From NCBI GenBank assembly GCA_963840495.1, contig CAWIZN010000047.1, positions 89,485 through 153,484 on the forward strand: a stretch of 64,000 nucleotides of DNA. Reading direction: 5' to 3'. Positions 7,647-49,978 of the stretch are shown here, one piece after another. A program made the translations under genes and the position numbers. The notes under the pieces were generated by a model. That model made no database searches and was not told the origin of the DNA. It worked only from the letters and a program-made list of their open reading frames with translations. Origin of the DNA: an uncultured Candidatus Rokubacteria bacterium (lineage in GTDB: Bacteria; Methylomirabilota; Methylomirabilia; Rokubacteriales; CSP1-6). Within the stretch, counting starts at the first letter, position 1. Every line of letters starts with the position of its first letter.

Positions 7647-8072
7647 ATGACTTCGGACGATCGCGACGTGGGGACCTGGCTTCAGGAGTTCGAAGCGGCG
7701 TGCCGAGCGCGGGACTTCGACACGGCTCGCCGCATGTTCGCGGAAGACGCGCTCGCCTTCGGCACGTGGGCGCGGGCCGTCCATGGCCTGGAGAACGTCG
7801 AGCGCGAGCAGTGGCGGAACGTCTGGCCGCGCATCCGGGAGTTCCGCTTCCAGGAGCAGCCGACGATCCGCGCGGGCGCCGACCTCGCCTGGATCGCCGC
7901 CGAGTGGTCGACCGAGGCCACCGGTGCCGACGGGAAGGCCTTCAAGCGGCCGGGCCGCGGCACCTTCGTCCTCGCCCGTCAGGACGGCCGCTGGCGCTGC
8001 GTCCACAGCCACTTCTCCCTGCTGCCGACCCAGTCGGAAACCGCTCACGGCCGCCTCGCAGACGGCCGATAA
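7647..8072 (+). CDS. SnoaL-like/NTF2-fold (DUF4440-like) protein
   Basis: C-terminal part of ORF 7353..8072(+): MTSDDRDVGTWLQEFEAACRARDFDTARRMFAEDALAFGTW...GTFVLARQDGRWRCVHSHFSLLP. Start set to ATG 7647 because the earlier ATG 7638 lies inside the -10 box. Confidence 0.72.
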   Translation: MTSDDRDVGTWLQEFEAACRARDFDTARRMFAEDALAFGTWARAVHGLENVEREQWRNVWPRIREFRFQEQPTIRAGADLAWIAAEWSTEATGADGKAFKRPGRGTFVLARQDGRWRCVHSHFSLLPTQSETAHGRLADGR

Positions 8073-9991: not shown

Positions 9992-10921
9992 TCATTTCAT
10001 CTTCGGGTCGAGGGCGTCGCGCACGCCATCCCCGAAGAAGGTGAACGAGAGCATGGTGACGGCGATGGCGATCGAGGGGAACACGCAGAGATACCAGTAC
10101 GAGCGCAGGAACTGCTGGTTCTCCCCCACCATCTGCCCCCACGACGGCGTCGGCGGGTTGATGCCGACGCCGATGAACGACAGCGCCGCCTCCGTGAAGA
10201 TCGCCTCGGGAATGCCGAAGGTGACGGACACCACGATCGGGGTGAGCGCGCTCGGCAGCACGTGCTTCGTGAGGATGCGCCAGAACCCGGCGCCGAGCGC
10301 CCGCGCGCCTTCCACGAACTCCTTCTCCTTGATGGCGAGCACCTGGGCGCGCGTCTGCCTGGCGATGCCCACCCAGCCCGTCAAGCCCAGCGCGATGAAG
10401 ATATTGATCAGCCCGGCGCCGAGCATCGACATCACGAGGATGACGAAGAGCAGCCGCGGAAAGGCGTACATCACGTCGATGAACCGCGTGAGCACGAGGT
10501 CGACGCGTCCTCCGAGATACCCGGCGATGGCGCCCATGGGCACGCCGATCAGCACGATGATGATCTGCGCGCCGAGCCCCACCAGCATCGACACGCGGGC
10601 GCCGTAGATCATCCGGGAGAGCACGTCGCGGCCGAGCTGATCGGTGCCGAGGGGGAACTCGCGCGACGGGAACTCGTAGATCTTCCCGAAATTGGCCTTG
10701 GCGTAGGGATACGGGGCGAGCACGTCGGCGAAGATGGCCACCAGGCACAGGAAGACGACGGTGATGCCGCCCACGACGGCGAGCTTGTTGCGGACCAGCC
10801 GGCGCCACGCATCGCGATACAGGCTCGAGCCGCGGGGCTTGGCGCGGGGCAGCGCCATCTCCCCCGCCGGCCCGCCCGGCAACGGCAGGCTAGTATCGGA
10901 TGCGGGGGTCGATAACGCCAT
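9992..10921 (-). CDS. ABC transporter permease (DppC/OppC-like)
   Basis: ORF 9992..10921(-), intact. The EAA-loop region is ..FVEGARALGAGFWRILTKHVLPSAL.. An alternative start is ATG 10858. Confidence 0.9.
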   Translation of the reverse strand: MALSTPASDTSLPLPGGPAGEMALPRAKPRGSSLYRDAWRRLVRNKLAVVGGITVVFLCLVAIFADVLAPYPYAKANFGKIYEFPSREFPLGTDQLGRDVLSRMIYGARVSMLVGLGAQIIIVLIGVPMGAIAGYLGGRVDLVLTRFIDVMYAFPRLLFVILVMSMLGAGLINIFIALGLTGWVGIARQTRAQVLAIKEKEFVEGARALGAGFWRILTKHVLPSALTPIVVSVTFGIPEAIFTEAALSFIGVGINPPTPSWGQMVGENQQFLRSYWYLCVFPSIAIAVTMLSFTFFGDGVRDALDPKMK

Positions 10922-11816
10922 AGAGGAGATCGACGGCGAGGTTCATGATCGCGAGGAACGCGCCGTAGAGCAGGACCACGGCCATGATCATCGGATAGTC
11001 GCGGCCCGTCATGGACAGCACGAAGAACCGCCCCATCCCCGGGACGCGAAAGATCGACTCCACGAAGAACGAGCCGGTGCCCACCGCCGCGAACATGGGT
11101 CCGAGCAAGGTCACCACGGGGATGAAGGCGTTCTTGAGGACGTGCTTCAGGATGACGGGCCGCTCCGCGAGCCCCTTGGCGCGCGCCGTCACGATGTAGT
11201 CCGAGCGGATGACCTCGATCATGCTCGATCGGGTGAAGCGCGCGATGATCCCGAGGGGGGCGAGCGCGAGCGTCACGGTGGGCAAGACCCAGTCGATCGG
11301 CGAGTTCCAGCCGCCGGTGGGGAAGATCGGCAGGATGAGCGAGAAGAGCACGATGAGGAAGACGGCCAGCACGAAGTTGGGCACGCTCACGCCGATGGTC
11401 GCCACCGTGACGGACAGGTAGTCCCACGAGCGATTCTGGTACACGGCGGCGAGCACGCCGAGCGTCACGCCCCCCGCGACGGCGAGGGCCAGGGCCATGC
11501 TGCCGAGCAGGAGCGAGACCGGCAGCGTCTCGGCCAGGATCTCGCGCACCGTGCGCGTCTTGTACACGAAGGACTGCCCGAAGTCCCCGCGGACGGCCTT
11601 GCCGATGAAGATCGTGAACTGCTGCCAGAGCGGCTTGTCGAGCCCGTAGACCTCGGCGAGGTTCTTCTGGGCGTCCGGTGAGAGGGGATTGGCGCCTTCG
11701 GCGACGGGATCGAGGGGGCTGCCAGGCGTCGCGTGCATCACGAGGAACGTGATGAGCGCCATGGCGAGCAGCGTGGGAACCAGCCACAGGAGGCGATACG
11801 CGGCGAAACGGAGCAA
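10890..11816 (-). CDS. ABC transporter permease (DppB/OppB-like)
   Basis: Last 308 aa of ORF 10890..13712(-): (M)LRFAAYRLLWLVPTLLAMALITFLVMH...DYIVTARAKGLAERPVILKHVLKNAFIPVV.. TTG start at 11816 with AAGAGGGGA upstream. The rest of the 940-aa ORF is antisense shadow. Confidence 0.9.
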   Translation of the reverse strand: MLRFAAYRLLWLVPTLLAMALITFLVMHATPGSPLDPVAEGANPLSPDAQKNLAEVYGLDKPLWQQFTIFIGKAVRGDFGQSFVYKTRTVREILAETLPVSLLLGSMALALAVAGGVTLGVLAAVYQNRSWDYLSVTVATIGVSVPNFVLAVFLIVLFSLILPIFPTGGWNSPIDWVLPTVTLALAPLGIIARFTRSSMIEVIRSDYIVTARAKGLAERPVILKHVLKNAFIPVVTLLGPMFAAVGTGSFFVESIFRVPGMGRFFVLSMTGRDYPMIMAVVLLYGAFLAIMNLAVDLLYGVIDPRIRY

Positions 11817-14747: not shown

Positions 14748-15752
14748 CCAAGTTCGAGCGTGTCCAGGCCGCCCTGAAGCGCGAGCCCACCGACCGGCCG
14801 CCCTACGCCTTCTGGCGTCATTTCCCCGACGTCGACCGCTCGGCGGCCGCGCTCGCCCAATCGACGCTGCGCTTTCACGAGCGCTATGGCTCGGACTTCC
14901 TCAAGGTCACTCCCACCGGCGGCTACGCGGTGGAGGACTGGGGCTGCGTGGAGAGCGACGAGGTCGCCCCCGACGGCCACCGCCCCTGCGCCCGCCACGC
15001 CGTCACGAGCTTCGATGACTGGAAGAAGATCCGGCCGCTGCGCCTGGAGTCGACGGGGTGGGGCGCTCATCTCGAGACCATCCTCCGCTGCGTCGTGGAC
15101 CGGCGCGCCGACTGCTCCACGCTGCCGACCATCTTCAGCCCGCTCTCCCTGGCGAGAAAGCTGTCGGGCGAGCGGCTCAACTACGACCTCAAGGAAAACC
15201 CGCAGGCCGTCACCGACGCCCTCGAGGCGATCACCGAGACGATCCTGACCTTCGCCGACGCCTGCTTCCTCGAGGGCGCGGAGGGCATCTTCTACTCCGT
15301 CATGGCGGCGAGCACGCGACCTGCACACCGAGGACGAGTACCGGCGCTTCGGCGAGCCCTACGACCGGCGCATCCTCGAGCACGTGCGGCCGAAGTCCAA
15401 GCTCACCGTCCTGCACTGCCACGGCTCGAACCTCATGTTCGACGTCCTCGCTGCCCTGCCCGCCCATGCGTGGAACTGGGACGACCGGCGGGCCGGGCCC
15501 TCGCTTCGCGACGCGCAGCGCCACGTGCCCGGCGCGGTGATCGGCGGGCTCGACCAGTGGGGGGCGCTCAGGGACGGGACGCCGGATGCCGCGAGCGCCG
15601 AGGCGCAGGATGCGCTCGCGCAGACGGGCGGACGCGGGGTCATTCTCGGCGCGGGCTGCGTGCTGCCGACCCAGACATCGGACCTGGCCCTGGTCGAGGT
15701 GATCAAGTCCATCGGCGGCCAGGTGAGGCTCGGTCTCATCCGACCTCAGTGA
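14744..15752 (+). CDS. uroporphyrinogen decarboxylase (URO-D) family protein, MtaA/CmuA-like methyltransferase candidate; frameshifted as sequenced
   Basis: ORF 14744..15796(+) gives the N-terminal half (MTKFERVQAALKREPTDRPPYAFWRHFP..FLKVTPTGGY..). ORF 15384..15752(+) gives the C-terminal half (..LTVLHCHGSNLMFDVLAALPAHAWNWDD..GAGCVLP..). The junction is at about 15308-15322 (..DLHTEDEYRRFGEPYDRRILEHV..). ATGA overlap with the MaoC stop. Confidence 0.7.
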
Positions 15753-19426: not shown

Positions 19427-20880
19427 CACTTGTGCGGATGCAAACGATTGGCGATCCTGTGCGTGTGCGGTTTGCTCAGCGCTGGGCGGGAGCGAACGGC
19501 GAGGCGGGAGCGAACGGGTTGGACCGGGAGGGCGCCGGCTCGGCCAGCACTCCGCGTACTTTCTTGGTGCGCGGGCTCCGGATGAACCGCGGCGCTTGGC
19601 CGCAGACCCGCGGCGTCACCGGCCAGGTCAGCGAGAGCCTGTTCGGCAGTCTGGACCTCCTCCCGCGTCCGCCGCAGTGCGGCCCGCTTCCACCGCGCTG
19701 GCCCAAGGTGTATGGCAACTCCACGAGCAGCAGATAGTGGATTGCGATTGTAACGAATGCGACCAGGACGAGAGCCATGATCTCAGCTGCCGGGCCGAGA
19801 TTAGGCAGCAGGCGCTCCAGGATGAGCGCCAAGCCTACTGGCCACGGCGCCCCCCGCATCCTGGCAGCCTGGAAGAGGCTCACAGCACCGAACGCCGCCA
19901 CCGACAGCAAGAGCCACCGCGCCGGCGGCGTCGCCGCCAAGAGGTTGTCACGACGCTCAGGGTCGACGGGCACGCTGTCGAGCTGCGAAGCAGCAAGCGC
20001 ACGGGCGAACCCGATGGCGGGCAGCAGCAGAAGGACGTCGACCGGAACGAGGATCAGCGCTTGGGCCGAGAGGACCACGCCGCGGCCGTCGAGCCCTGAG
20101 GTCTTCTGGTCGGCTGGCCATGATCCAGAGCTCGAATCGCGGCAAGCGTGATGACCTTAGCCACGCCGACATGGAGGGCAAAAGGCGTGACGGCCAACCA
20201 GCCATCAGCCACGCTGCTGTCGGGAAGCCATCTGCCGAGTCGGCGAACTACGTGCAGATAGTGGAACCCGGCGCGGAAGAAGGCGGGCACATCGTTTGCG
20301 GTAAGCGCTGACAAGCCGACGGCATAGGCTGCCAATATGAAGAACGACTCCGGGGTAACCAGGCGAGCCAAAAACGCCTCTGGGGTAAGCAGGCGATCCC
20401 AGAAGAGGGCAGGCTGGGCTCGCGACCTGACAAGAAGGGCGATCCACAAGACGAAGTAGGCGAACGCGACGAGGCCCGCGACGCAGCGGCGCGCACGAGG
20501 GCTCTTGTGCCATCCCGCGCCCACCTCTGTCCCGTGGAGGAAGAACAGCGCCCCGAGGACAGCCATTGCCGCACTCGCGACACCGAACGCCTTCTCTCGG
20601 AATCCGACGTCCAGCATCCCGAGCGCGATAGCGTCAGCAGAAAACCCTCGCGAGGCGCCGGACGGAACGCGGGAACGTCCTCTGACGTACGGCGCGCTGC
20701 ACTGCTGGCATCGCTGCCGCTGGCCACGTAGAGTACAGGCAAGGACGCTCCCGACCCATGGTCCCAGCTTCGGTCCGATCCTCGACGCCCCACCCACACC
20801 GCAAGAGCGGCGATGAGTGCCGTGACGATCAGGCGGGGCCAGTCGAACACCGGCCAGTTCAGCCCGCAGAGCGGCTCCAC
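19427..20880 (-). pseudogene. polytopic membrane protein of unknown family, spread over at least 3 frames
   Basis: The N-terminus VEPLCGLNWPVFDWPRLIVTALIAALAVWVG (frame of 20248..20880) continues naturally in ORF 20054..20797 (..AMAVLGALFFLHG..GLVAFAYFVLWIALLV..FFILAAYAVGLSAL..). It continues again in ORF 19476..20078 (..ILVPVDVLLLLPAIGF..LLLSVAAFGAVSLF..ALVLVAFVTIAIHYLLLV..), with a helical tail (..RWKRAALRRTREEVQTAEQALADLAG..) in yet another frame. The region is visibly lower in GC. Confidence 0.4.
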
Positions 20881-21186
20881 ACCGACACGCTCGAGCCCTC
20901 CGGGTTTCCGGAGTGAGTCCCTAGAGGATAGGTTCGCCTGCCGATTTTGAGGATAACCTGACGACCCGCGGAGGTCCTGCAGGCAATGGCGCAGGCCGTC
21001 AGTCCCGTGGCAAGGCCGCCATCAGGGACGCAAGTAGAGAGGCTACGGCAGCGGTAGGCGGCACAACGAAGGTCGTCGAGTCGTCCTCGGCGCTCGTGGT
21101 GTGACTCTGTGTGTAGAACGATCTGGCAAAGGCGCTCGGCCGCCCTCCCCCTAACCCCCGCTAAGAGGTTTTAACCCCAATCGGCC

Positions 21187-21232
21187 AAGTGCCATAACCT
21201 CTCGGTCACTGAAGTGCCAGTACCTCTCGGTC
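21187..21232 (+). repeat. tandem 21-bp direct repeat (2 copies, 25-bp period) upstream of the integrase remnant
   Basis: aagtgccataacctctcggtc (21187-21207) and aagtgccagtacctctcggtc (21212-21232), 19/21 identical. Confidence 0.65.
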
Positions 21233-21268
21233 GCTATGCTTGGAGAAAACACTTGGGAGTGAGGTGCG

Positions 21269-22340
21269 ATGAGTAAAAAGGCCCCCGGCGGAGGAGAACA
21301 GGCGGCGTGCCATGGTGGCAGCGGTTCGGGACGGCGCCTCGATGCGATCCGTGACACGGGCTCAGAAGGTGAGCCTGGCGACCGTGCAATGGTGGCTGCG
21401 ACGAGCCGGGCAGCGGTCCTTGGAGGAGGTCGATTGGAGCGACCATGCGCCGATTCCCGGACGGACTCGTCGAACTGATCCTCGGTAGAAGATGCCGTGT
21501 TGATCCTGCGCCGCGAGCTGAAGGAGACGAGTAATCTGGGCGAGTACGGCGCTCAGGCTCTCCACCGCGAGCTAGTGATACGAGGAGGCGCGACGGTGCC
21601 CGCGGTGCGCACCATCGGTCGAATCCTCGAACGCCGAGGTGCGTTGGATGGCCGGCGACGCGTGCCTCGACCTTCCGGCCTCGCCAGGCTGGCATCTCCC
21701 CGACTGCGAGGACGGACGCGCTGAACTCGACAGCTTCGATACCGTCGAGGGGCTCACTTTGGAAGGGGGTCTCCGTCTGGAGGTCCTCAATGTGGTCTCC
21801 TTGCACGGGGCTTGCCGGGCTCGTGGCCGCAGACGCTGGTGACCGCAAAACCGCGGTCGAGGCGCTCGTGGACACTGGCGCGAATTCGGACTGCCGACCT
21901 ATGCCGTCGACAACGACACCGTCTTCCATGGGAGCCACCACGGTCAGGATTCTCTCGGCCTCGTCGTGCGGACCTGCCTGCGGCTCGGGGTTACTCCGGT
22001 CTTCGCGCGGCCACAGGAGAGTGGCTTTCAAGCGGCCGTCGAAAATGTCAACGGCCGCTGGCAAGCCAAAGTTTGGGCTCGCTTCCACCATGCGTTGCTC
22101 GCCGCCCTTCAAGAATGTTCTCGACGTTATATCAGCGCCTACCGCAAGCGCGCCGCCGCCCGGATCGAGGCGCGCCTCCGCGGCGGCCGTTCCCGCCCGC
22201 CTGGCGGCCGGACTTGCAGGCCCATCCGGTCGGGACGGTCATCTACATCCGCCGCAGTTCGGAGGCCGGTGCCGTCAGCCTCCTGGGTCATAGCTTTGCC
22301 GTGGTGCGAGAGCTCCTGACACTTGACCGACACGGTGAGC
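21269..22340 (+). pseudogene. decayed DDE (rve-type) integrase/transposase
   Basis: Pieces lie in all three plus frames. HTH: ..RRRAMVAAVRDGASMRSVTRAQKVSLATVQWWLRRAGQRSLEEVDW.. Then ..ILRRELKETSNLGEYGAQALHRELVIRGGATVPAVRTIGRILERRGALDGRRR.. Catalytic-core-like: ..YAVDNDTVFHGSHHGQDSLGLVVRTCLRLGVTPVFARPQESGFQAAVENVNGRWQAKVW.. There are multiple stops and frame changes, and no matching right-end repeat. Confidence 0.6.
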
Positions 22341-22345
22341 CCGCG

Positions 22346-23152
22346 TCATTTCTTCACCCCGGCGAGAAAGGCGAGGAGCGCGCGGTTGAAGCGCGGCACC
22401 TCCTCGATGAAAAAGGCGTGCCCGCCGGGAAGGATCTTGAGCTTGGCATCGGGGATGAGAGCGGCCAGCCGCCGCGAGAAAACGGGCGGCGTCAGGATGT
22501 CGTCTCCACCAGCACGAGCGCCGGCGCCCGGAGCTTGCCCAGCTCGCGCAGCCGCGTCCCGTTCCACTCGACCAGCCCCCGGCCTTGCCGCTCGATCGCG
22601 TCGGCCTTGGTGGGGAACGGATAGGCGAGCGCACGCTTGACGGCGTCCGCCACGCGCGCGGAGTCGCCGAGGAAGGCGGGCGAGTAGAGCCACGGGAAGA
22701 GCAGGTGGCGGAAACGATCCTCGAGCGAGAGCTGGGGCGCCAGCGCGCGCCATGACTCGATCGTGCGCAGGAAGCGGCCGTCCCCCTCCGCCCACGTGCA
22801 GCACAGGGTGAGGCTCCTGACGCTCGCCGGGTACCGGATCGGCGAGCTCCATGGCGATGGTGCCGCCCATCGAGGCGCCGATCACGTGGGCGCGCTTCAC
22901 GTTCAGGTGATCGAGGAGCGCCCGGGCGTCCTCCGCCAGCTCGCCGGTCGCGTACCGCAGCTCGCGCGGCATGTCGGTCTCGCCCACCCCGCGATTGTCG
23001 AAGGTGATGACGTGATAGCGCGGCGAGAGGTCGCGTACCTGGAAGAGCCACCCGACGCCGGGTCCGCCGAGTCCGCTGATGAGGAGCACGGGGTCGCCGG
23101 CGCCATGCGTCTCGTAGTGCATGCGGATGCCGTTCACGGTCGCGTAGGGCAA
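22346..23152 (-). CDS. alpha/beta hydrolase, two compensating frameshifts as sequenced
   Basis: ORF 22346..23248(-) carries the N-terminus (..VNGIRMHYETHGAGDPVLLISGLGGPG...HVIGASMGGTIAMELA) and the C-terminus (..DDILTPPVFSRRLAALIPDAKLKILPGGHAFFIEE..). The middle roughly 110 aa reads naturally only in another frame (..IRYP..VRSLTLCCTWAEGDGRFLRTIESWRALAPQLSLEDRF..). Junctions are at about 22843-22850 and 22498-22505. TTG start at 23152 with GGAGG upstream. Confidence 0.75.
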   Translation of the reverse strand: MPYATVNGIRMHYETHGAGDPVLLISGLGGPGVGWLFQVRDLSPRYHVITFDNRGVGETDMPRELRYATGELAEDARALLDHLNVKRAHVIGASMGGTIAMELADPVPGERQEPHPVLHVGGGGRPLPAHDRVMARAGAPALARGSFPPPALPVALLARLPRRLRARGGRRQACARLSVPHQGRRDRAARPGAGRVERDAAARAGQAPGAGARAGGDDILTPPVFSRRLAALIPDAKLKILPGGHAFFIEEVPRFNRALLAFLAGVKK

Positions 23153-23171: not shown

Positions 23172-24177
23172 TTAGAGCGTGAGGGCGACTTTGATCGAAT
23201 CGGGAGCGCGATGCGCCTCGAAGGCATCGGCGATTCGATCGAGGGCAAACCGGTGCGTGAGCAAGCGCTGCCCCTGCACCTGACCGGACGCGAGGAGCGC
23301 CATGGCCTCCGGGAACTCGTCCTGGTAGATCATCGAGCCGAGGATGCTGATCTCCCGCCGCACCACCCAGAAAAACTCGAGCTGGCTCGCCTCGTGGGGC
23401 AGCCCGGTCAAGACGACGCGCCCACCGGGCCGGCACAGCTCGACGGCCTGCCCGACGGCCGGCGCGGTGCCCGCGGTCTCGACGACCAGGTCGACCCCTT
23501 CGCGACCGGACAGCGCCCGCGCCGCCTCGACATGATCCCCCGCGTCCGTGGTGGCGACCGCGTCGGCGCCGAGCGCCCGGGCGAGCGGCAGCCGGCGCGC
23601 CGAACGCCCCACCGCGAGCACCCGGCACCCGCGCGCCTTGAGGACCTGGATGGCGAGGAGCCCGAGGGCGCCGACGCCCAGCACCGCGGCCGTCTCTCCC
23701 GCGCGCCGGCGCGCCGCGCCGCACCGCGCGGACCACGACGGCGAGGGGCTCGGTGAGGAGGAGCTGATCGTCGTCGATCCCGGCGGGCGCGGGCCAGCAG
23801 CAATGGGCGGGCAGCGCCACTTCCTGAGCGAAGCCGCCGTCCACGTCGATGCCCACCGCCGTTCGCGACAGGCAGAGGTTCTTGTTGCCCTCTCGGCACA
23901 GCGGACATACACCGCACGAGTAGTTGGGCTCGACCGCCACCTTGGCCCCGGGCGTGAGCCCGCTCACGCCGGACCCGAGGGCGAGCACACGGCCGATCAG
24001 CTCATGGCCCATCACGCGCGGGTAGTCGACGGCGCGATCGCCGTTCCAGATCCGGTAGTCGGTGCCGCACAGACCGGCGCCCTCGACCCGGATCACGGCT
24101 TCGCCGACGCCGGGCGAAAGCGACGGGCGGGTCTCGATCGTGAGATCTCTCGGCGCGTGGAGGACAGCCGCGATCAT
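23172..24177 (-). CDS. zinc-dependent alcohol dehydrogenase family (threonine/sorbitol dehydrogenase-like), frameshifted as sequenced
   Basis: ORF 23134..24177(-) gives the N-terminus (..GLCGTDYRIW..GHELIGRV..CGVCPLCREGNKNLC..). ORF 23172..23912(-) gives the C-terminus (..AGETAAVLGVGALGLLAIQVLKARG...). The junction is at about 23700-23725. Confidence 0.8.
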
Positions 24178-26913: not shown

Positions 26914-28421
26914 TCAGAGCTGTCTGCGGAGCTCTTTTTTCAGGATCTTCCCGATCGGGCTCTTGGGCAGTGAGTCCACAAAACGGACGTGCTTCGGACA
27001 CTTGAACCGTGCGAGCCGGGTCGCGCAGAACGCCATGACGTCATCGGCCGTCGCCGCCTCGCCGGGTTTGAGCACGACGAAGGCGAGGACGTCCTCGCCC
27101 ATCAGCGCATCCGGCATGGCGATCACCGCGGCCTCCGCGGTCTTCGGGAAGGCGTAGAGCACTTCCTCGACTTCCCGAGGGTAGATATTGAACCCGCCGC
27201 GGATGATGAGGTCTTTCTTTCGCTCGACGATGTAGAGGAAGCTCGTCCTCGTCGAGGCGCCCCATGTCGCCCGTGTGCAGCCACCCCTCGCGGATGGCGC
27301 GCGCCGTCTCCTCGGGGCTCCGATAGTAGCCCACCATCACGTTGGGCCCCTTCACGCAGACCTCGCCGACCTCGCCGGCGGGCAGATGCCGGCCATCGTC
27401 GTCCTGGATGGAGACGCGCACGCCCGGAATCGGCTGGCCCACGGAGCCGAGCTTCCTGACGCCCGACAGCCGATGGGCCGAGACCACGGGCGACGCCTCG
27501 GTGAGGCCATAGCCCTCCATGAGCTTGCCCCCGAACTTCCGCTCGAACGGCTCCACGATCTCGACGGGGAGCGGTGCGGCACCGGATCCCCAGACGCGCA
27601 TCGTCCGCGTATCGAAGCGGTCCGCCTCGGCGTAGTTCAGCAAGTAGAGGAACATGGTCGGGACGCCCGCCATGCTCGTCGCCTTGAAGGCCTGGATGGC
27701 CGCGAGAACCTCTTCGGGATTGAACCAGCGGAGGAGGCACGCCCGCGTGCCGAGGATGTGGCCCGCGTTCATCACCGTGAGGCCGTAGGAATGCGACAGC
27801 GGCAGGACCGCGACGCCCCAGTCCGTCCGGTCGAGCTCGGTAGAGCGCGGCCGCCGAGCGCGCGTTGGACTCGAGGTTGTCATGCGAGAGCGCCACGCCC
27901 TTGGGCACCCCGGTGGTCCCCGACGTGTAGAGGATCACCGCGAGGTCGTCGGCGCCGCGCTCCTCGGTCGGGAACGACTCGGGCTCCCCCGCGATCTCCC
28001 CGGCGAACGAGAGGGTGCGGCCGTCTCCCCCGCCGTCCACGAGCAGCACGTGGCGAAGCGTGGGCATGACGCCGATCTGCGCGTCGACTTTCCAGAGCAT
28101 ATCGCTCGAGGTGATGACGACCTTCGACTCGGAGTCGGCGAGGATGTGCGCGACCTCCGCGTCGCCGAGCAGGAAGATCACCGGGACGATCACGCCGCCC
28201 GCCCTCAGAATTCCGCCGTAGCTCTGCAGCACCTCGGGACAGTTGGGCAGCATGACCATGACGCGGTCGCCCGGCTCGACCCCGAGGCGGCGCAACGCAT
28301 TGGCCACGCGGCCCGCCGTCCGGTGCTGCTCGACGTTGGTGTACTGCCGCCCCTCGAAGGCGAGCGCGACGTATTCGCCGTACTTCTCGAGGCTCTCCTC
28401 CACCAGGCGCGTGAGTGACAT
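26914..28421 (-). CDS. acyl-CoA synthetase (AMP-binding), two frameshifts as sequenced
   Basis: Three frames: 27123..28421 (MSLTRLVEESLEKYGEYVALAFEG...ILYTSGTTGVPKGVALSH..), 27041..27883 (..WGVAVLPLSHSYGLTVMNAG...EGYGLTEASPV...WLHTGDMGRLDED) and 26914..27162 (..LYAFPKTAEAAVIAMPD...PKSPIGKILKKELRRQL). Junctions are at about 27838-27845 and 27236-27243. Confidence 0.82.
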
Positions 28422-28573
28422 CTCGGGCTCCGGAGCTCGGGATCCAGGGGGTTAGGGCAAGCGACAACCCTATAGCATGACGGGGATAACGCAACGCAAG
28501 AAAAGTGCCCCGGAGCGAAGATCGCATGAGGTGCTTCAGAACCGGCGGTTGGCCGGTGAGAACCGCGCCGGAC

Positions 28574-31656: not shown

Positions 31657-32226
31657 ATGCCGTCACCCTCCGCGGACGGACGGGCCTATCCTCGGGCCGT
31701 GACGCTCGCCGACGGCGGGACCGTCTCCCTGCGCCTCATGTCGACGGACGACGGGGACCGTCTCGTGGCCTTCGCCCGCGAGCTGCCGCCGGACGATCTG
31801 CTCTTCCTGAGCGTCGACATCACCGATCCGGAGGCGGTAGGGCGCTTCATCGAGGGCCTCGAGGCCGGCCGCATCGTCGGGGTGATCGCCGAGGACGCCG
31901 GCGTGACGGCGGGCTACGCCGCGCTCCTGCACCACGGCGTCACGTGGCAGCGCCACCTGGGGGAGATCTTCATCCAGGTGAGCTCGCGCCATCGGTCGCG
32001 CGGGCTCGGCCGCGCGCTCGCGACCGAGATCTCGGCGATCGCCCGCGACCTCGGGCTGCGGAAATTCATCGCGCGCATGACGCCCGATCAGAAGGGCGCC
32101 GTCAGCACCTTCGAGCGCCTCGGGTTCAAGACCGAGGCGCTGCTCCAGGACTTCGTGATCGACGCCGACGGCCGGACGCGCGACATCCTCGTGATGGCGC
32201 GCGATGTGCCGGCCGCCGCTCCCTGA
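31657..32226 (+). CDS. GNAT acyltransferase, storage-synthase-linked subfamily (GNAT-1)
   Basis: ORF 31657..32226(+). ..AYPRAVTLADGGTVSLRLM..LPPDDLLFLSVDITDP..GYAAL..RSRGLGRAL..ARMTPDQKGAVSTFERLGFKTEALLQDFVID.. TATACT at 31643-31648, 8 nt before the ATG. Divergent from phaC1. Confidence 0.8.
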   Translation: MPSPSADGRAYPRAVTLADGGTVSLRLMSTDDGDRLVAFARELPPDDLLFLSVDITDPEAVGRFIEGLEAGRIVGVIAEDAGVTAGYAALLHHGVTWQRHLGEIFIQVSSRHRSRGLGRALATEISAIARDLGLRKFIARMTPDQKGAVSTFERLGFKTEALLQDFVIDADGRTRDILVMARDVPAAAP

Positions 32227-36543: not shown

Positions 36544-37143
36544 CTACGGCTCCAGGGCTTCACTGACCCCATACGCATCCATCTGCGACTGGAACCGCGC
36601 CACGTCATGGCTCAGGACCAGCAGATCGTGCTTCTTGCCCTCGCGGTCCTTGACGTGGTCCCGCAGGAGCGCCTCCGGCCGAAACCCCATGCCTTCGAAC
36701 ACCGCGATCGCGCCCTTCTGGTCCACCGTCATCTGCGCCACCATCTTCTCGATGCCGAGCTCGAGGGCCAGCGCAAAGGCCTCCTGGGTGAGCAGCCGAC
36801 CGAGTCCCTTGCCCCGCATCGCCCCGGAGACCAGCACCCGCAGCTCGGCGACGTGCGGGGACCAGTCGAGCTGCCCGCGGTCGACGGCCGCGTACCCCTG
36901 CACCACCCCATCGCGATCCGCGAGCAGGGTCGTGACCGCGCCGCGCTCGATGGCGTCGACCCAGGCGTCGATCACGGCAGGCCGGGTGATGTCGACGGGC
37001 AGGAAGAGCAGGTCGTGTCCGGGCAACGCGCGCGAGAACGCGAGCAGGGCCGCCCGGTCCATCCCGTTCATGGGGCGGAGCGTGACCATCTCCCCGCCGA
37101 GCGAGACCTTCCGCGGATAGGCGCGGCGCTCCCGGGTGCTCAT
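36544..37143 (-). CDS. GNAT acyltransferase, storage-synthase-linked subfamily (GNAT-2)
   Basis: Last 199 aa of ORF 36544..37773(-). MSTRERRAYPRKVSLGGEMVTLRPM..LPGHDLLFLPVDITRP..GYAAV..RGKGLGRLL..AQMTVDQKGAIAVFEGMGFRPEALLRDHVKD.. The ATG overlaps the phaC2 stop (ATGA). Confidence 0.8.
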   Translation of the reverse strand: MSTRERRAYPRKVSLGGEMVTLRPMNGMDRAALLAFSRALPGHDLLFLPVDITRPAVIDAWVDAIERGAVTTLLADRDGVVQGYAAVDRGQLDWSPHVAELRVLVSGAMRGKGLGRLLTQEAFALALELGIEKMVAQMTVDQKGAIAVFEGMGFRPEALLRDHVKDREGKKHDLLVLSHDVARFQSQMDAYGVSEALEP

Positions 37144-43881: not shown

Positions 43882-44032
43882 GCCGCGAGTATGAGCCCCT
43901 GAAGGCCAGTGTCAACCCGTCGCGCAACGCTGCGCGGCTGCCGCGGCGTGGAGCCCTTTCATTGAGCGGGGACGCGCGACTATACTCGTGGCTCGACCCC
44001 GCGATCCGTCGCCGGCCGGAGGACAGCATCCA

Positions 44033-46099
44033 ATGACGCAGCCGAGCCTCAACCGTCGCCTCACCACGATCGATTCCACCTTCCTCTATCTCGAGAAGGC
44101 CGAGCAGCCCATGCACATCGGAGGCTGCATGCTCTACGAGGGCCGCGTCTCCCGCGAGGAGCTGGCGCGCCTGCTCCTCGACCGACTCCATCGGCTGCCC
44201 CGCTACCGGCAGAAGGTCGTGTTCCCCCCGTTCACCCTCGCGCATCCGACGTGGGAAGACGACCCGGACTTCGACATCGCTCACCACATCGACGAGGTCA
44301 CGCTGCCCGCCCCCGGCGACGACCGCACGATGGCCGAGATCGGCGGCCGCGTGTACGGGGGGATGCTGGATCGCGGCCACCCGCTCTGGAAGCTGATCCT
44401 GCTCCAGGGCCGATCCGACGGCCATACCGCGATCGTCTGGAAGATCCACCACGCGATGATCGACGGCATGTCCGGGGTCGACTTGACCATGGTGCTTCAC
44501 GATCTGACACCCGACGCCGAGCCCCCGACCCCGCCGGCGGCGCCGTGGCAGCCTCGTCCGCTGCCCGATCCGATCACCCTGCTGCAGGATGCCGTGCGCG
44601 ACCGCTTGACCGAGGCCGCCCAGAGCTTCACCGACTCGGCATTCGGCCTGCTCCGCCCGACCGAGATCAGCGCGCGCGCCCGGCAGCTCACGGGGGCCGT
44701 CACGACCGCGCTGCCCTCCTTGCTCAAGCCGGCGCCGAGCACGCCGTTCAATGCCCCGCTGTCGACCGAGCGCCGCTTCGCCTGGCATGGCCTGCCCTTC
44801 GCGGACATCCGCGCGATCCGCTCCGCGCTGGGCGGCACCGTGAACGACGTCGTGCTCGCCATCCTGAGCGGCGCCCTCGGCCGTTACCTCCGCGCGCGGG
44901 GCCTTCCGACCGAGGGCGTCGAGCTGCGCGCGATGTGCCCGGTGAGCATGCGCAGGCCGGACGAGCGCGGCGCCCTCGGCAACCTCGTGTCGATCATGAT
45001 CGCCCCGCTCTATGTCGGCATCGCCGATCCCGTCGCGCGCCTCACGGCCGAGCGCCAGGCCATGGAGCGGCTCAAGGGCGAGGATCAGGCGGGCGGGCTC
45101 TACTCGCTGCAGCAGCTCATGAACGGCGTCCCCGCCGCGTGGCAGGCGCTCGCGGGCGCGATCACCATCCCCCAGACCCTGTTCAATACGGTCTCCACCA
45201 ATGTGCCGGGACCGCAGATCCCGCTCTATCTGGGTGGGCGCCGCCTGCTGAACTGGATTCCGCTCGGGATCTGCTCGACGGGCGTCGGCCTGTTCGTCGC
45301 CATCCTGACCTATGACCGGCGGCTCACGTTCGGCCTCACCTTCGACCCCGCGCTCATCGCCGACGGCTGGGAGATCGCCGATCACCTGCGCCTGGCGTTT
45401 GCGGAGCTGCGGAGCGCCGCCGAGGCGGCCCAACCGGCGGCCTTCGCGGGGGTTGCGCGCACCCGCGGCCGCGGTACTCGCGGACGCGGCGGCCGCGGCG
45501 CGATAGGCACGCCGATGCCGACCGCGGACGCCCCGGGCACGCGCCGCGCCTACCCGCGCGCCATCACGCTCGACAGCGGCACCGCCATCACCCTGCGATT
45601 CATGACCGCCGCCGACGCCACCGCCGTCGTCTCGTTCGCGAAGAGCCTGCCCGCGGACGACCTCCTGTTCCTGCGCACGGACATCACGAGCCCCTCCGTC
45701 GTCGCGCAGTGGGTGAAGAACCTCGCGGCGGGGCGCACCGTCACGGTCATCGCCGAGGCGGGCGGCGAGATGGCCGGCTATGCGAGCCTGCACCACCACG
45801 AGACGAGCTGGCAGCGCCACCTGGGCGAGATTCGCATCCAGGCGGGGCAGCGCTATCGCTCGCAGGGCCTCGGACGGGGGCTCGCGGGAGAGGTCTTCGC
45901 GCTGGCCACGGAGCTGGGGCTGCGCAAGATCGTCGCGCAGATGACGGTCGATCAGAAGGGCGCGATCGCCACCTTCGAGCGGCTCGGCTTCCGCGCCGAG
46001 GCGCTCCTGTCGGATTTCGTGATCGACCGCGACGGGCGCACGCGCGATCTCATGATCATGGCCTACGACGTCGACGGGTTGACCGAGCACCTGGACTGA
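44033..46099 (+). CDS. wax ester synthase/diacylglycerol acyltransferase (WS/DGAT), read as one ORF with a C-terminal GNAT (GNAT-3)
   Basis: ORF 43988..46099(+). MTQPSLNRRLTTIDSTFLYLE.., catalytic HHAMIDG, ..NVPGPQIPLYLGG.. Then an R/G-rich linker and the GNAT domain. Start set to ATG 44033 (GGAGGA 10 nt upstream; a TATACT -10 lies at 43981-43986). Confidence 0.88.
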   Translation: MTQPSLNRRLTTIDSTFLYLEKAEQPMHIGGCMLYEGRVSREELARLLLDRLHRLPRYRQKVVFPPFTLAHPTWEDDPDFDIAHHIDEVTLPAPGDDRTMAEIGGRVYGGMLDRGHPLWKLILLQGRSDGHTAIVWKIHHAMIDGMSGVDLTMVLHDLTPDAEPPTPPAAPWQPRPLPDPITLLQDAVRDRLTEAAQSFTDSAFGLLRPTEISARARQLTGAVTTALPSLLKPAPSTPFNAPLSTERRFAWHGLPFADIRAIRSALGGTVNDVVLAILSGALGRYLRARGLPTEGVELRAMCPVSMRRPDERGALGNLVSIMIAPLYVGIADPVARLTAERQAMERLKGEDQAGGLYSLQQLMNGVPAAWQALAGAITIPQTLFNTVSTNVPGPQIPLYLGGRRLLNWIPLGICSTGVGLFVAILTYDRRLTFGLTFDPALIADGWEIADHLRLAFAELRSAAEAAQPAAFAGVARTRGRGTRGRGGRGAIGTPMPTADAPGTRRAYPRAITLDSGTAITLRFMTAADATAVVSFAKSLPADDLLFLRTDITSPSVVAQWVKNLAAGRTVTVIAEAGGEMAGYASLHHHETSWQRHLGEIRIQAGQRYRSQGLGRGLAGEVFALATELGLRKIVAQMTVDQKGAIATFERLGFRAEALLSDFVIDRDGRTRDLMIMAYDVDGLTEHLD
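45515..46099 (+). other. GNAT-3 module (domain of, or separate gene after, the WS/DGAT)
   Basis: MPTADAPGTRRAYPRAITLDSGTAITLRFM..LPADDLLFLRTDITSP..GYASL..RSQGLGRGL..AQMTVDQKGAIATFERLGFRAEALLSDFVID.. It begins like GNAT-1 (MPSPSADGRAYPRAV..). A TAG in the +1 frame ends 8 nt before this ATG (45504-45506). Confidence 0.8.
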
Positions 46100-46149
46100 G
46101 CCCGGGCACTGGCGGCGAGCCTCAGCGTCGGCTCGGACTGCACGCTGCC

Positions 46150-46945
46150 GACGCTGCGCCGGCAACCGAGCGCCGCCGGCCGGGGCCGCGAGCGCGGCCA
46201 GGCGCTCCGCGATGATCCGGTACACCTTCGGGTTCCACGCCAGTCCCACGTGGGTGCCCGACACCTCGACGTCAGCCTCGGCATCGTCATTGATGCACGA
46301 CCGCCAGTCCACGATGCCGTCCGTCTTGGTGTAGATCGCGATCTGGGGAACAGAGGACGGCAGCGGCGCCTGGAGCGCCTTGACGGTGTCGCACTGACAC
46401 GCCGCGGTGAAGCAATCCGGGCGATCGTCCCGCTGCTCCGCCCGGCTCCGGATGCGGGCGCGCACCGTGCTCGCCGCTTGCATCACGAGCGGATGCGACC
46501 GGATGCCACGGAACGGAGACCCGAGCGTGATCACGGAGGCGATCCGGTCCGGGCGGCGCACCGCGGCCGAGCGCGCCAGCATGCCTCCAAGGCTGTGGCC
46601 GATGAGATGCACCGGGCGGCCCGTCGACGCCCGCGCCTCCTCGACCGTGCCGAGCAGTCGCCCGACCAGGACATCCAGGCACTCCGCGTTTCTGCCGATG
46701 CGCGAGAGAAAGGGCCGGTAGCCGATGCGGCCGAGCCAGAAGTACATCTCGAGGAGATAGACGTCGCTGCCGAGGAAGCCGGGCACCACGACGACCGGCG
46801 CCCCGTCACCGCGGGGGATGCCGCACCCGTACAGAACGGGTGAGGTTCGAAGGGCCAGCCAATCGAAGCCGAACAGCGCCTCGCGCCAGATCGGGACGGA
46901 AGCCGGCCGCTCTTCCACATCGAAGTGCACCGTCGAGCGCGCCAT
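46150..46945 (-). CDS. alpha/beta hydrolase, lipase/esterase-like; 3' end unresolved
   Basis: First roughly 255 aa of ORF 43259..46945(-). ..VVVVPGFLGSDVYLLEMYFWLGRIGYRPFL.., nucleophile box GHSLGG, ..ITLGSPFRG.., ..GTHVGLAWNPKVYRIIAERL.. The frame has no stop and continues as antisense shadow of the WS/DGAT gene, so the low coordinate is a guess. Confidence 0.7.
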
Positions 46946-49380: not shown

Positions 49381-49978
49381 CTAGCTCGCGCCACGCGGCG
49401 CGGCAGCAGCGCCTTGCAGGAAGATGTCCACCACGGTGTCCGCCGTGCCGACGAGGTGGTAGCCGCGCTTGCCGAGCACCCACGAGGTCGCCATCTGATC
49501 CATGGCGCCGAAGAGCATCTTCGTGGCGACCTTCACGGGCAGGTCGGCGGAGAAGCGTCCCGGCCGCCGCGCCCTCCTCGAAGACGGAGGCGATCAGGGC
49601 GAAATACGCGGCGATCTCTTGGTTGGCCGGGCCGCGGAAGAGCTTCTGGCCCTGCCGCAGCTCCACCTGCACCACCTCGGCCAGCTCTGGGTTGTCCTCC
49701 AGGATCCGGAAATGGAGCCGGACGAGCCGCCGCAGCTTGGCGACGGCGTCGCGCTCCTCGGCAATGGCCTGGCGCACCGTCTCCACGAACCCCGCCATCT
49801 TCTCCCGGAAGAGCGTGATCAGGATCTCTTCCTTGGTGTCGAAGTACAGGTAGATGGTGCCCGCGGCGATCCCCGCCTCGCGCGCGATGTCGGAGACGCG
49901 CGCGTTGAAATATCCCTTTCGGGCGAAGACCCGAAGGGCGGCCTCGATGATCTGCTGTGGCTTCTCGGGATCGCGCAT
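49381..49978 (-). CDS. TetR-family transcriptional regulator, frameshifted as sequenced
   Basis: From ORF 49088..51202(-): MRDPEKPQQIIEAALRVFARKGYFNARVSDIAREAGIAAGTIYLYFDTKEEIL... After ..VFEEGAAAG (about 49552-49564) the natural sequence continues in another frame (RFSADLPVKVATKMLFGAMDQMATSWVLGKRGYHLVGTADTVVDIFLQG..*). Confidence 0.8.

What the first reader, a model, noticed from the sequence alone, without database searches (positions are those of the whole stretch)
44033..46099. WS/DGAT-GNAT: genuine fusion or a one-base artefact
As read, a 688-aa ORF joins a complete WS/DGAT (HHAMIDG, ..NVPGPQIPLY..) to GNAT-3 through an Arg/Gly-rich linker (..ARTRGRGTRGRGGRGAIGTP). The GNAT part begins MPTADAPGTRRAYPR, which mirrors the free-standing GNAT-1 start MPSPSADGRAYPR.

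In the +1 frame a TAG (45504-45506) sits 8 nt before that ATG (45515). This window also has many 1-nt indels. An indel in or just before the linker, for example in the G5 run of gcgggggttgcg, could therefore have fused two adjacent genes. Either outcome keeps the tight linkage, but a real fusion would be the strongest evidence for a functional partnership.
Basis: seen in the sequence. Interest (0 to 1): 0.6.

Follow-up and report, generated by a model that had tools for sequence, protein, structure and literature searches.

The report
False gene fusion from one extra base
The 688-residue "wax-ester synthase plus acetyltransferase" protein is almost certainly two ordinary neighbouring genes, joined on paper by a single extra base in an error-rich assembly; only their close neighbourhood is real.

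Summary
The ORF is there as described: 44033-46099, 688 aa, a complete WS/DGAT plus a GNAT.

The join is not supported by any relative.
- Three contigs 94-96% identical in DNA (L001, L016, L024) differ from the window inside this 2-kb coding stretch by exactly one indel. The window has one extra base at about 45457 (GTTGC[G]CGC).
- Without that base, WS/DGAT reads ...FAGV-APAAAVLADAAAAAR and stops at TAG 45504-45506. The GNAT ATG (45515) follows 8 nt later. Relatives make exactly these two proteins, 490 aa and 194 aa.
- 18 of 19 tandem orthologous loci are cleanly split. The 19th is another noisy contig with a different extra base. A further 35 loci have the GNAT convergent. None is fused.
- No GNAT-carrying WS/DGAT appears among the best 150 of 1.84 billion representatives.

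The assembly itself is riddled with frame breaks. I confirmed 8 single-domain splits in this 64-kb window. Genome-wide, 9 of about 32 AMP-binding genes are broken. The breaks are mostly of the "one extra base" kind.

Verdict: artefact about 0.85, real recent mutation about 0.1, ancient fusion about 0.01. The WS/DGAT-GNAT linkage is real and spans several phyla.

The parts
44033..46099 (+). Fused ORF as assembled (688 aa): WS/DGAT + 55-residue Arg/Gly-rich 'linker' + GNAT
44018..44022 (+). Shine-Dalgarno GGAGG, 10 nt upstream of the WS/DGAT start ATG 44033
   Evidence: Relatives start at the same Met.
44033..45506 (+). WS/DGAT gene proper. It would be 490 codons plus TAG once the extra base at about 45457 is discounted. 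HHAMIDG active-site motif is present.
   Evidence: The window's +1 frame reads RAPAAAVLADAAAAAR*, which matches the tails of the 490-aa relatives.
45455..45460 (+). GCGCGC stretch holding the one extra base (exact placement ambiguous, about 45457). It is absent from L001, L016, L024 and L017.
45452..45514 (+). Apparent linker. It is the out-of-frame reading of the Ala-rich WS/DGAT tail, the TAG stop and the 8-nt spacer.
45504..45506 (+). Ancestral TAG stop of WS/DGAT, intact in the +1 frame
45515..46099 (+). GNAT gene proper (194 codons plus TGA). It has its own ATG, the RAYPR N-terminal motif and the acetyl-CoA motif RSQGLGRG.
   Evidence: The 194-aa free-standing orthologues are 96-98% identical.
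46190..46945 (-). Convergent alpha/beta-hydrolase (PGAP1 / palmitoyl-thioesterase-like), a conserved neighbour of the GNAT

Best explanation
There are two separate, co-directional genes here, probably co-transcribed and translationally coupled. One is a 490-aa WS/DGAT acyltransferase. The other is a 194-aa GNAT N-acyltransferase whose ATG lies 8 nt after the WS/DGAT stop.

The assembled sequence carries one extra base at about 45457, in GTTGC[G]CGC. That base pushes the last 16 WS/DGAT codons into the GNAT's frame. The TAG is then read through as ..GCG ATA GGC.., and the Ala-rich tail plus the spacer appears as an Arg/Gly-rich 'linker'.

The extra base is most probably an assembly or consensus error, of the same kind that breaks many other genes of this MAG.

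- **Shown:** the extra base relative to all relatives; the split state of orthologues; the error load of the assembly.
- **Inferred:** that this particular base is an error and not a real mutation; co-transcription and translational coupling of the two genes.
For: 1. **One indel.** The window differs from L001, L016 and L024 (94-96% nt identity) inside 44033-46099 by a single indel, one extra base at about 45457.
2. **Matching tails.** The 490-aa relatives end FAGV[AP]AP[AV][AS]AG[LI]ADA[AT]AAAR*. The window's +1 frame reads RAPAAAVLADAAAAAR* and ends at TAG 45504-06.
3. **90% cluster.** The window protein's 90% cluster has 195 members, of which 15 were listed. It shows 490-aa WS/DGATs and 194-aa GNATs. 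Only the window's own entry is 688 aa.
4. **Tandem loci.** 19 were examined, 14 from metagenomes and 5 GTDB representatives at 36-98% aa identity. All 18 clean ones have a stop between the genes, with spacers from -4 (ATGA/GTGA overlap) to +44 nt. Three have the two genes in the same frame but separated by a stop.
5. **Convergent loci.** 35 further loci have the GNAT on the opposite strand, so they cannot be fused.
6. **No fused architecture elsewhere.** The GNAT-region search among 378-1204-aa proteins found only unfused WS/DGATs. The best 150 of 1.84 billion representatives hold no protein matching both halves. The long ones carry no GNAT, and two carry CBS pairs.
7. **Assembly noise in the window.** Eight frame breaks in this 64-kb window each split one Pfam domain or one canonical domain pair. 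They are Cys_Met_Meta_PP 1-189|191-380, SBP_bac_5, URO-D, ADH_N|ADH_zinc_N, AMP-binding (two breaks), p450 1-176|207-457 and TetR_C_4. All eight are of the +1 class.
8. **Assembly noise genome-wide.** 9 of about 32 AMP-binding genes are split between frames, with 10 frame changes, 7 of them +1 and 3 -1. Overall that is 14 +1 against 3 -1.
9. **Other window-only insertions.** Two more single-base insertions specific to the window lie nearby in non-coding DNA, at 43967 and 44012.
10. **Same false join elsewhere.** A second noisy contig, L017, lacks this base. It has its own extra C 14 nt downstream, which gives the same false read-through.
Against: - The extra base is therefore not directly shown to be an error.
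- The comparators are 4-6% divergent strains, not the same genome.
- A frameshift that changes only the last 16 residues and joins two functionally linked enzymes could be tolerated in vivo.
- The site is not a homopolymer.
- GC3 of the short linker does not discriminate between the two frames.
Confidence: 0.85

Rival explanations
1. The extra base is a real, very recent +1 insertion in this strain. The cell would then make a 688-aa bifunctional WS/DGAT-GNAT with a makeshift Arg/Gly linker.
For: - The two genes are linked across phyla, so a joined product might be tolerated.
- Only 16 C-terminal residues of WS/DGAT are altered, beyond the end of the Pfam C-terminal domain at residue 459.
- The GNAT keeps its full sequence.
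- Reads were not available to exclude it.
Against: - The same contig has at least 8 other frame breaks of the +1 (one extra base) class, inside conserved enzyme genes.
- About 28% of AMP-binding genes genome-wide are broken.
- At roughly 0.3 breaks per kb, an error in the approximately 190-nt target is expected in several percent of such gene pairs. A natural coding indel between strains of about 95% identity is far rarer.
- No other member of the 90% cluster is fused.
Confidence: 0.1
2. This is an old, selected domain fusion (a Rosetta-stone protein), with the Arg/Gly stretch as a genuine linker.
For: Only the open frame itself and the conserved neighbourhood.
Against: - None of the 18 clean tandem loci and none of the 35 convergent loci is fused.
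- There is no fused representative in the big libraries.
- The ancestral TAG, spacer and ATG are intact in the +1 frame.
- The 'linker' is the frameshifted Ala-rich tail.
Confidence: 0.01
3. The frame breaks, including this one, are real and the genome is undergoing pseudogenisation.
For: Many broken genes.
Against: - Broken genes keep full-length, high-scoring domain halves and the coding GC3 signal on both sides.
- They show no in-frame stops or other lesions.
- The direction is biased to +1, 14 against 3. This fits a technical bias better than natural mutation, which established knowledge says is deletion-biased in bacteria.
- Contig sizes (minimum 13.8 kb, N50 75 kb, no N) fit a long-read assembly.
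Confidence: 0.04

Closest known systems
Bacterial WS/DGAT acyltransferases (TIGR02946; Pfam PF03007 + PF06974). From my own knowledge, AtfA of Acinetobacter baylyi ADP1 and the Tgs enzymes of Mycobacterium are examples.
   Same: Full-length match above the curated cut-off, HHxxxDG motif (HHAMIDG), both domains present, and about 490 aa once the extra base is discounted.
   Different: Nothing unusual in the enzyme itself. Its closest genomes are Rokubacteria/Methylomirabilota MAGs. Activity is untested.
PAT / YncA (MnaT)-type small GNAT acetyltransferases (PDB 1vhs, 2vi7, 3dr6; NCBIfam ArsN1/PPT models)
   Same: GNAT fold signature, R-x-x-G-x-G acetyl-CoA motif and about 190 aa. Best PDB hit is 1vhs at E 7e-10. 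Sources name the orthologues YncA or RimJ/RimL.
   Different: Scores are far below every equivalog cut-off, for example 38 bits against 170 for ArsN1a. The subfamily has its own N-terminal [R/E/K]xYP[RK]xhxL motif. It also has a conserved position next to WS/DGAT or class III PhaC-like genes. The substrate is unknown.
Chimeric or split ORFs created by residual indels in long-read assemblies (a known artefact class; from my own knowledge, described for long-read assemblies around 2019)
   Same: A single-base indel changes the frame, so neighbouring genes merge or single genes split. Many such events occur in one assembly, and they are absent from short-read contigs of the same population.
   Different: The site is a GC-dinucleotide stretch and not a homopolymer. 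The sequencing platform of this MAG is not known to me.

Membership tests
WS/DGAT (TIGR02946 / PF03007+PF06974) | Whole-protein match above the curated cut-offs, with both the catalytic and the C-terminal domain | tested here: met
   TIGR02946 scores 412.5 bits against a cut-off of 309.95. PF03007 scores 201 bits and PF06974 scores 95 bits.
WS/DGAT (TIGR02946 / PF03007+PF06974) | Active-site motif HHxxxDG | tested here: met
   HHAMIDG in the translation, conserved in P0001-P0003, P0009, P0010 and P0014.
WS/DGAT (TIGR02946 / PF03007+PF06974) | Acyl-CoA:alcohol / diacylglycerol acyltransferase activity | not testable with these tools
   Needs an enzyme assay.
GNAT superfamily (PF00583 / PF13302) | Pfam match above the gathering score and the acetyl-CoA-binding motif R/Q-x-x-G-x-G/A | tested here: met
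   PF00583 scores 42.3 bits against 20.7, and PF13302 scores 33.2 against 25.4. RSQGLGRG is present.
PPT / ArsN1 / YncA equivalogs | Score above the NCBIfam equivalog cut-off | tested here: not met
   ArsN1a scores 38.2 against 170. PPT acetyltransferase scores 22.1 against 300.
Natural multidomain fusion protein | The same fused architecture in orthologues or anywhere in protein libraries | tested here: not met
   No fused case in 18 clean tandem loci and 35 convergent loci. None or in the top 150 of 1.84 billion representatives. Only the window's own entry is 688 aa in its 90% cluster.
Natural multidomain fusion protein | Loss of the upstream stop and of the downstream start signals, with a linker conserved in the fused frame | tested here: not met
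   TAG 45504-06, the 8-nt spacer and ATG 45515 are intact in the +1 frame. The linker is the frameshifted Ala-rich tail.
Natural multidomain fusion protein | Read-level support for the uninterrupted frame | not testable with these tools
Assembly indel artefact | The indel is absent from near-identical independent assemblies | tested here: met
   L001, L016, L024 and L017 all lack the base.
Assembly indel artefact | The same assembly shows many other single-base frame breaks in conserved genes | tested here: met
   8 in this window. 9 of about 32 AMP-binding genes genome-wide.

The most novel reading that the evidence does not exclude
The fusion is false but the partnership is real. A distinct small GNAT subfamily may be a dedicated accessory of storage-lipid and polyester synthases.

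- It has the N-terminal xYP[RK]xhxL motif and is 47-69% identical across phyla.
- It sits tandem to or convergent with WS/DGAT in Rokubacteria/Methylomirabilota, Binatia, Chloroflexota, Hydrogenedentes and Pseudomonadales.
- In this genome its paralogues also lie next to two class III PhaC-like genes.

It might, for example, N-acylate or acetylate the synthase, a granule or droplet protein, or a lipid head group. No such partner has been described for WS/DGAT.
Probability: 0.3. Interest if true: 0.5.

Novelty: not a real feature. Interest (0 to 1): 0.1.

Why it matters
The main value is as a caution. In this MAG an in-frame "fusion" or a "pseudogene" cannot be taken at face value, because roughly one frame break occurs every 3-8 kb of coding sequence.

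The 688-aa protein is already deposited in public protein collections. It bridges the otherwise unrelated 490-aa WS/DGAT and 194-aa GNAT families into one 90% cluster, so the artefact is propagating.

What survives is modest but real: a WS/DGAT-GNAT gene neighbourhood conserved in two orientations across several phyla. That is a testable lead for an unknown accessory function in neutral-lipid storage.

Tried and rejected
- **Reads.** The decisive test is missing.
- **GNAT-region search.** Searching among long proteins returned only three unfused WS/DGATs. This is useful as a negative, but it was capped at 8000 candidates.
- **Codon statistics of the linker.** By eye, GC3 is 16/20 in the fused frame against 14/17 in the +1 frame. 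Synonymous versus non-synonymous differences to L001 are 2 and 2 in either frame. The stretch is too short to discriminate, so I dropped this.
- **Abutting coding segments.** Not every abutting pair is a frameshift. 9998-10888 | 10890-11792 are two separate permease genes, 29298 | 29861 are MaoC and PhaE-like genes, and 1668 | 2585 are PdxS and a GNAT. 52351 | 53195 was inconclusive. I counted only junctions that split one domain or one canonical domain pair.
- **C73 AMP-binding pair.** The two matches are in the same frame, so they are not a break.
- **Second copy.** No second copy or strain variant of the locus exists in the MAG.
- **Literature.** Searches for a WS/DGAT-GNAT partnership found nothing relevant.
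- **Programmed frameshifting.** I considered it and dropped it. Relatives need no shift, and the genes are complete as separate cistrons.

Full report
**1. The observation**

The open frame is real. The ORF listing gives 43988..46099 on the + strand (703 aa from GTG). ATG 44033 is the true start. GGAGG lies at 44018-44022, 10 nt upstream, and every relative begins MTQPSLNRRL.

- Pfam finds WS_DGAT_cat (10-274), WS_DGAT_C (316-459) and GNAT models (519-676).
- NCBIfam TIGR02946 scores 412.5 bits against a cut-off of 309.95.
- HHAMIDG, NVPGPQIPLY and the linker ARTRGRGTRGRGGRGAIGTP are present.
- In the +1 frame, TAG lies at 45504-45506 and ATG at 45515, with 8 nt between them.
- The GNAT start aligns with the free-standing paralogue at 31657-32223 (59% identity). 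It is 47% identical to the one at 36547-37143.

**2. What close relatives look like**

A search restricted to the C-terminal part of the query, but to proteins of 378-1204 aa, returned only three proteins. All are unfused WS/DGATs of 485-490 aa. Their contigs each carry a separate 192-194-aa GNAT gene 5-14 nt downstream.

P0001 ends ...AAQPAAFAGVPAPAAAGLADAAAAAR. The window's +1 frame reads ...RAPAAAVLADAAAAAR* and stops at the TAG.

DNA alignments place the difference.
- Inside the whole 2-kb coding stretch, the window differs from L001, L016 and L024 (94-96% identity) by one indel only.
- That indel is an extra base at about 45457, GTTGC[G]CGC.

The "linker" is therefore the Ala-rich tail, the stop codon and the 8-nt spacer read one base out of frame. 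This is why it is Arg/Gly-rich.

The window's 688-aa protein is itself in the public collection. It sits in one 90% cluster of 195 members. Of the 15 members listed, four are 490-aa WS/DGATs, eight are 194-aa GNATs, two are fragments, and only the window's own entry is 688 aa.

**3. Orthologous loci at large**

A metagenome scan gave 14 loci with WS/DGAT followed by the GNAT on the same strand, at 36-98% aa identity. A scan of GTDB species representatives gave 5 more.

- Eighteen of the 19 have a stop codon between the genes.
- Spacers run from -4 (ATGA or GTGA overlap) to +44 nt.
- In L096, L126 and L136 the genes even share a frame but are separated by a stop.
- The nineteenth is L017, a 332-kb contig full of homopolymer indels. 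It lacks the window's extra base but carries its own extra C 14 nt further on. It then breaks frame twice inside the GNAT. Independent noise has produced the same false read-through.
- In 35 further loci the same GNAT subfamily (37-78% identity) lies convergent to WS/DGAT. These are mostly Binatia and Chloroflexota, with one Hydrogenedentes locus.

An exhaustive phmmer search with the fused protein against 1.84 billion representatives listed no protein matching both halves among the best 150. The long hits carry no GNAT, and two have CBS pairs.

**4. Quality of the window's own assembly**

I segmented the window by codon-position GC content. I then tested abutting same-strand segments with Pfam. 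Eight junctions split a single domain, or a canonical domain pair, between two frames.

| Position | Split |
|---|---|
| ~3818 | Cys_Met_Meta_PP 1-189 \| 191-380 |
| ~8893 | SBP_bac_5 40-233 \| 237-364 |
| ~15305-15317 | URO-D 2-203 \| 213-332 |
| ~23697-23721 | ADH_N \| ADH_zinc_N |
| 27241 | AMP-binding \| AMP-binding_C |
| 27839 | AMP-binding 2-194 \| 209-384 |
| 39309 | p450 1-176 \| 207-457 |
| ~49555-49573 | TetR_C_4 1-79 \| 86-129 |

- All eight have a gap of 1 modulo 3, meaning one extra base.
- In the P450, the text reads GCC ATC G GTG GGC where ...FVDAM-VGALSGTM... is expected.
- Genome-wide, the AMP-binding family gives 21 intact copies and 9 genes split between frames. That is 10 frame changes, 7 of the +1 class and 3 of the -1 class.
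- Together this is 14 +1 against 3 -1.
- The window also has two more window-specific single-base insertions in the non-coding DNA just upstream, at 43967 and 44012.
- Contig statistics (83 contigs, minimum 13.8 kb, N50 75 kb, no N) fit a long-read MAG. This last point is inference.

Any +1 insertion in roughly the last 190 nt of WS/DGAT would fuse it to the GNAT. That figure comes from the GNAT frame, which is open for 198 nt upstream of its ATG in L001. At about 0.3 breaks per kb, this is expected in several percent of such gene pairs. A natural coding indel between 95%-identical strains is far rarer.

**5. What is really there**

There are two cistrons, WS/DGAT (490 aa) and GNAT (194 aa), tightly spaced and probably translationally coupled. 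Coupling is inferred from the spacing, which ranges from -4 to +18 nt in most relatives.

They sit in a lipid-metabolism neighbourhood:
- a convergent PGAP1 / palmitoyl-thioesterase-like hydrolase
- SCP2
- an SDR
- an enoyl-CoA hydratase
- a CYP102-like P450-reductase
- two class III PhaC-like genes, each with a paralogous GNAT

The GNAT is a PAT/YncA-like small acetyltransferase by fold signature only. Its best PDB hit is 1vhs at E 7e-10, and all NCBIfam equivalog cut-offs are missed by far. Its substrate is unknown.

The recurrence of the pair in two orientations across several phyla supports a functional link. It does not support a physical fusion. The closest genomes are Rokubacteria/Methylomirabilota MAGs.

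**6. Limits**

A real, very recent +1 mutation in this strain therefore remains possible, at about 0.1. An ancient selected fusion is effectively excluded. Literature searches found nothing on a WS/DGAT-GNAT partnership.

**7. Verdict**

The fusion is not a real feature (confidence 0.85). Interest is low. The useful outputs are:
- a warning about frame-dependent calls in this genome
- a note that the chimeric protein already sits in public collections and merges two families in clustering
- a modest lead on a conserved WS/DGAT-GNAT neighbourhood

Noticed in passing
window 46100-46945 (- strand): The convergent alpha/beta-hydrolase ends at about 258 aa in relatives (...AERLAAPSVVAAAAR*). In the window it has no stop there and runs on antisense through GNAT and WS/DGAT to 43259, giving a 1228-aa ORF. 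The window carries about 35 extra bases at 46100-46190 relative to L016 and L024. This could be another indel or a divergent intergenic stretch.
   Followed up: partly
L017:4392-4498 (equivalent to window 45425-45530): A second, independently noisy 332-kb contig (96.5% identical) also reads WS/DGAT into the GNAT, through a different extra base. It then breaks frame at the equivalents of window 45606 and 45822.
   Followed up: yes
L104-L133, L139, L153 and L022, L026, L033, L036, L039, L041, L054, L055, L060: The same GNAT subfamily lies convergent, directly downstream of WS/DGAT, in 26 GTDB species representatives and 9 metagenome contigs. The representatives are mostly Binatia and Chloroflexota, with one Hydrogenedentes. 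The linkage is kept in two orientations.
   Followed up: partly
window 3818, 8893, 15305-15317, 23697-23721, 27241, 27839, 39309, 49555-49573: Eight frame breaks each split one Pfam domain or domain pair between two frames. All are of the one-extra-base class. The acyl-CoA synthetase at 26929-28430 is in three frames.
   Followed up: yes
P0099, P0120 (WS/DGAT representatives): WS/DGAT proteins with a C-terminal CBS-domain pair exist. This is a genuine C-terminal extension architecture of the family.
   Followed up: no
window 20000-22400: A stretch of lower GC (63-67%) with weak codon-position signal and only short ORFs on the - strand.
   Followed up: no
L007 (genome G005, another genus of the same family): A 64%-identical GNAT there has no WS/DGAT beside it. 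It keeps the convergent alpha/beta-hydrolase neighbour and lies next to an encapsulin (Linocin_M18) gene.
   Followed up: partly
other contigs of the same genome: First-reader notes list further in-frame 'fusions' in this MAG, namely hydrolase-LLM monooxygenase and KS-like-GT2. Given the error load, they need the same one-base test.
   Followed up: no
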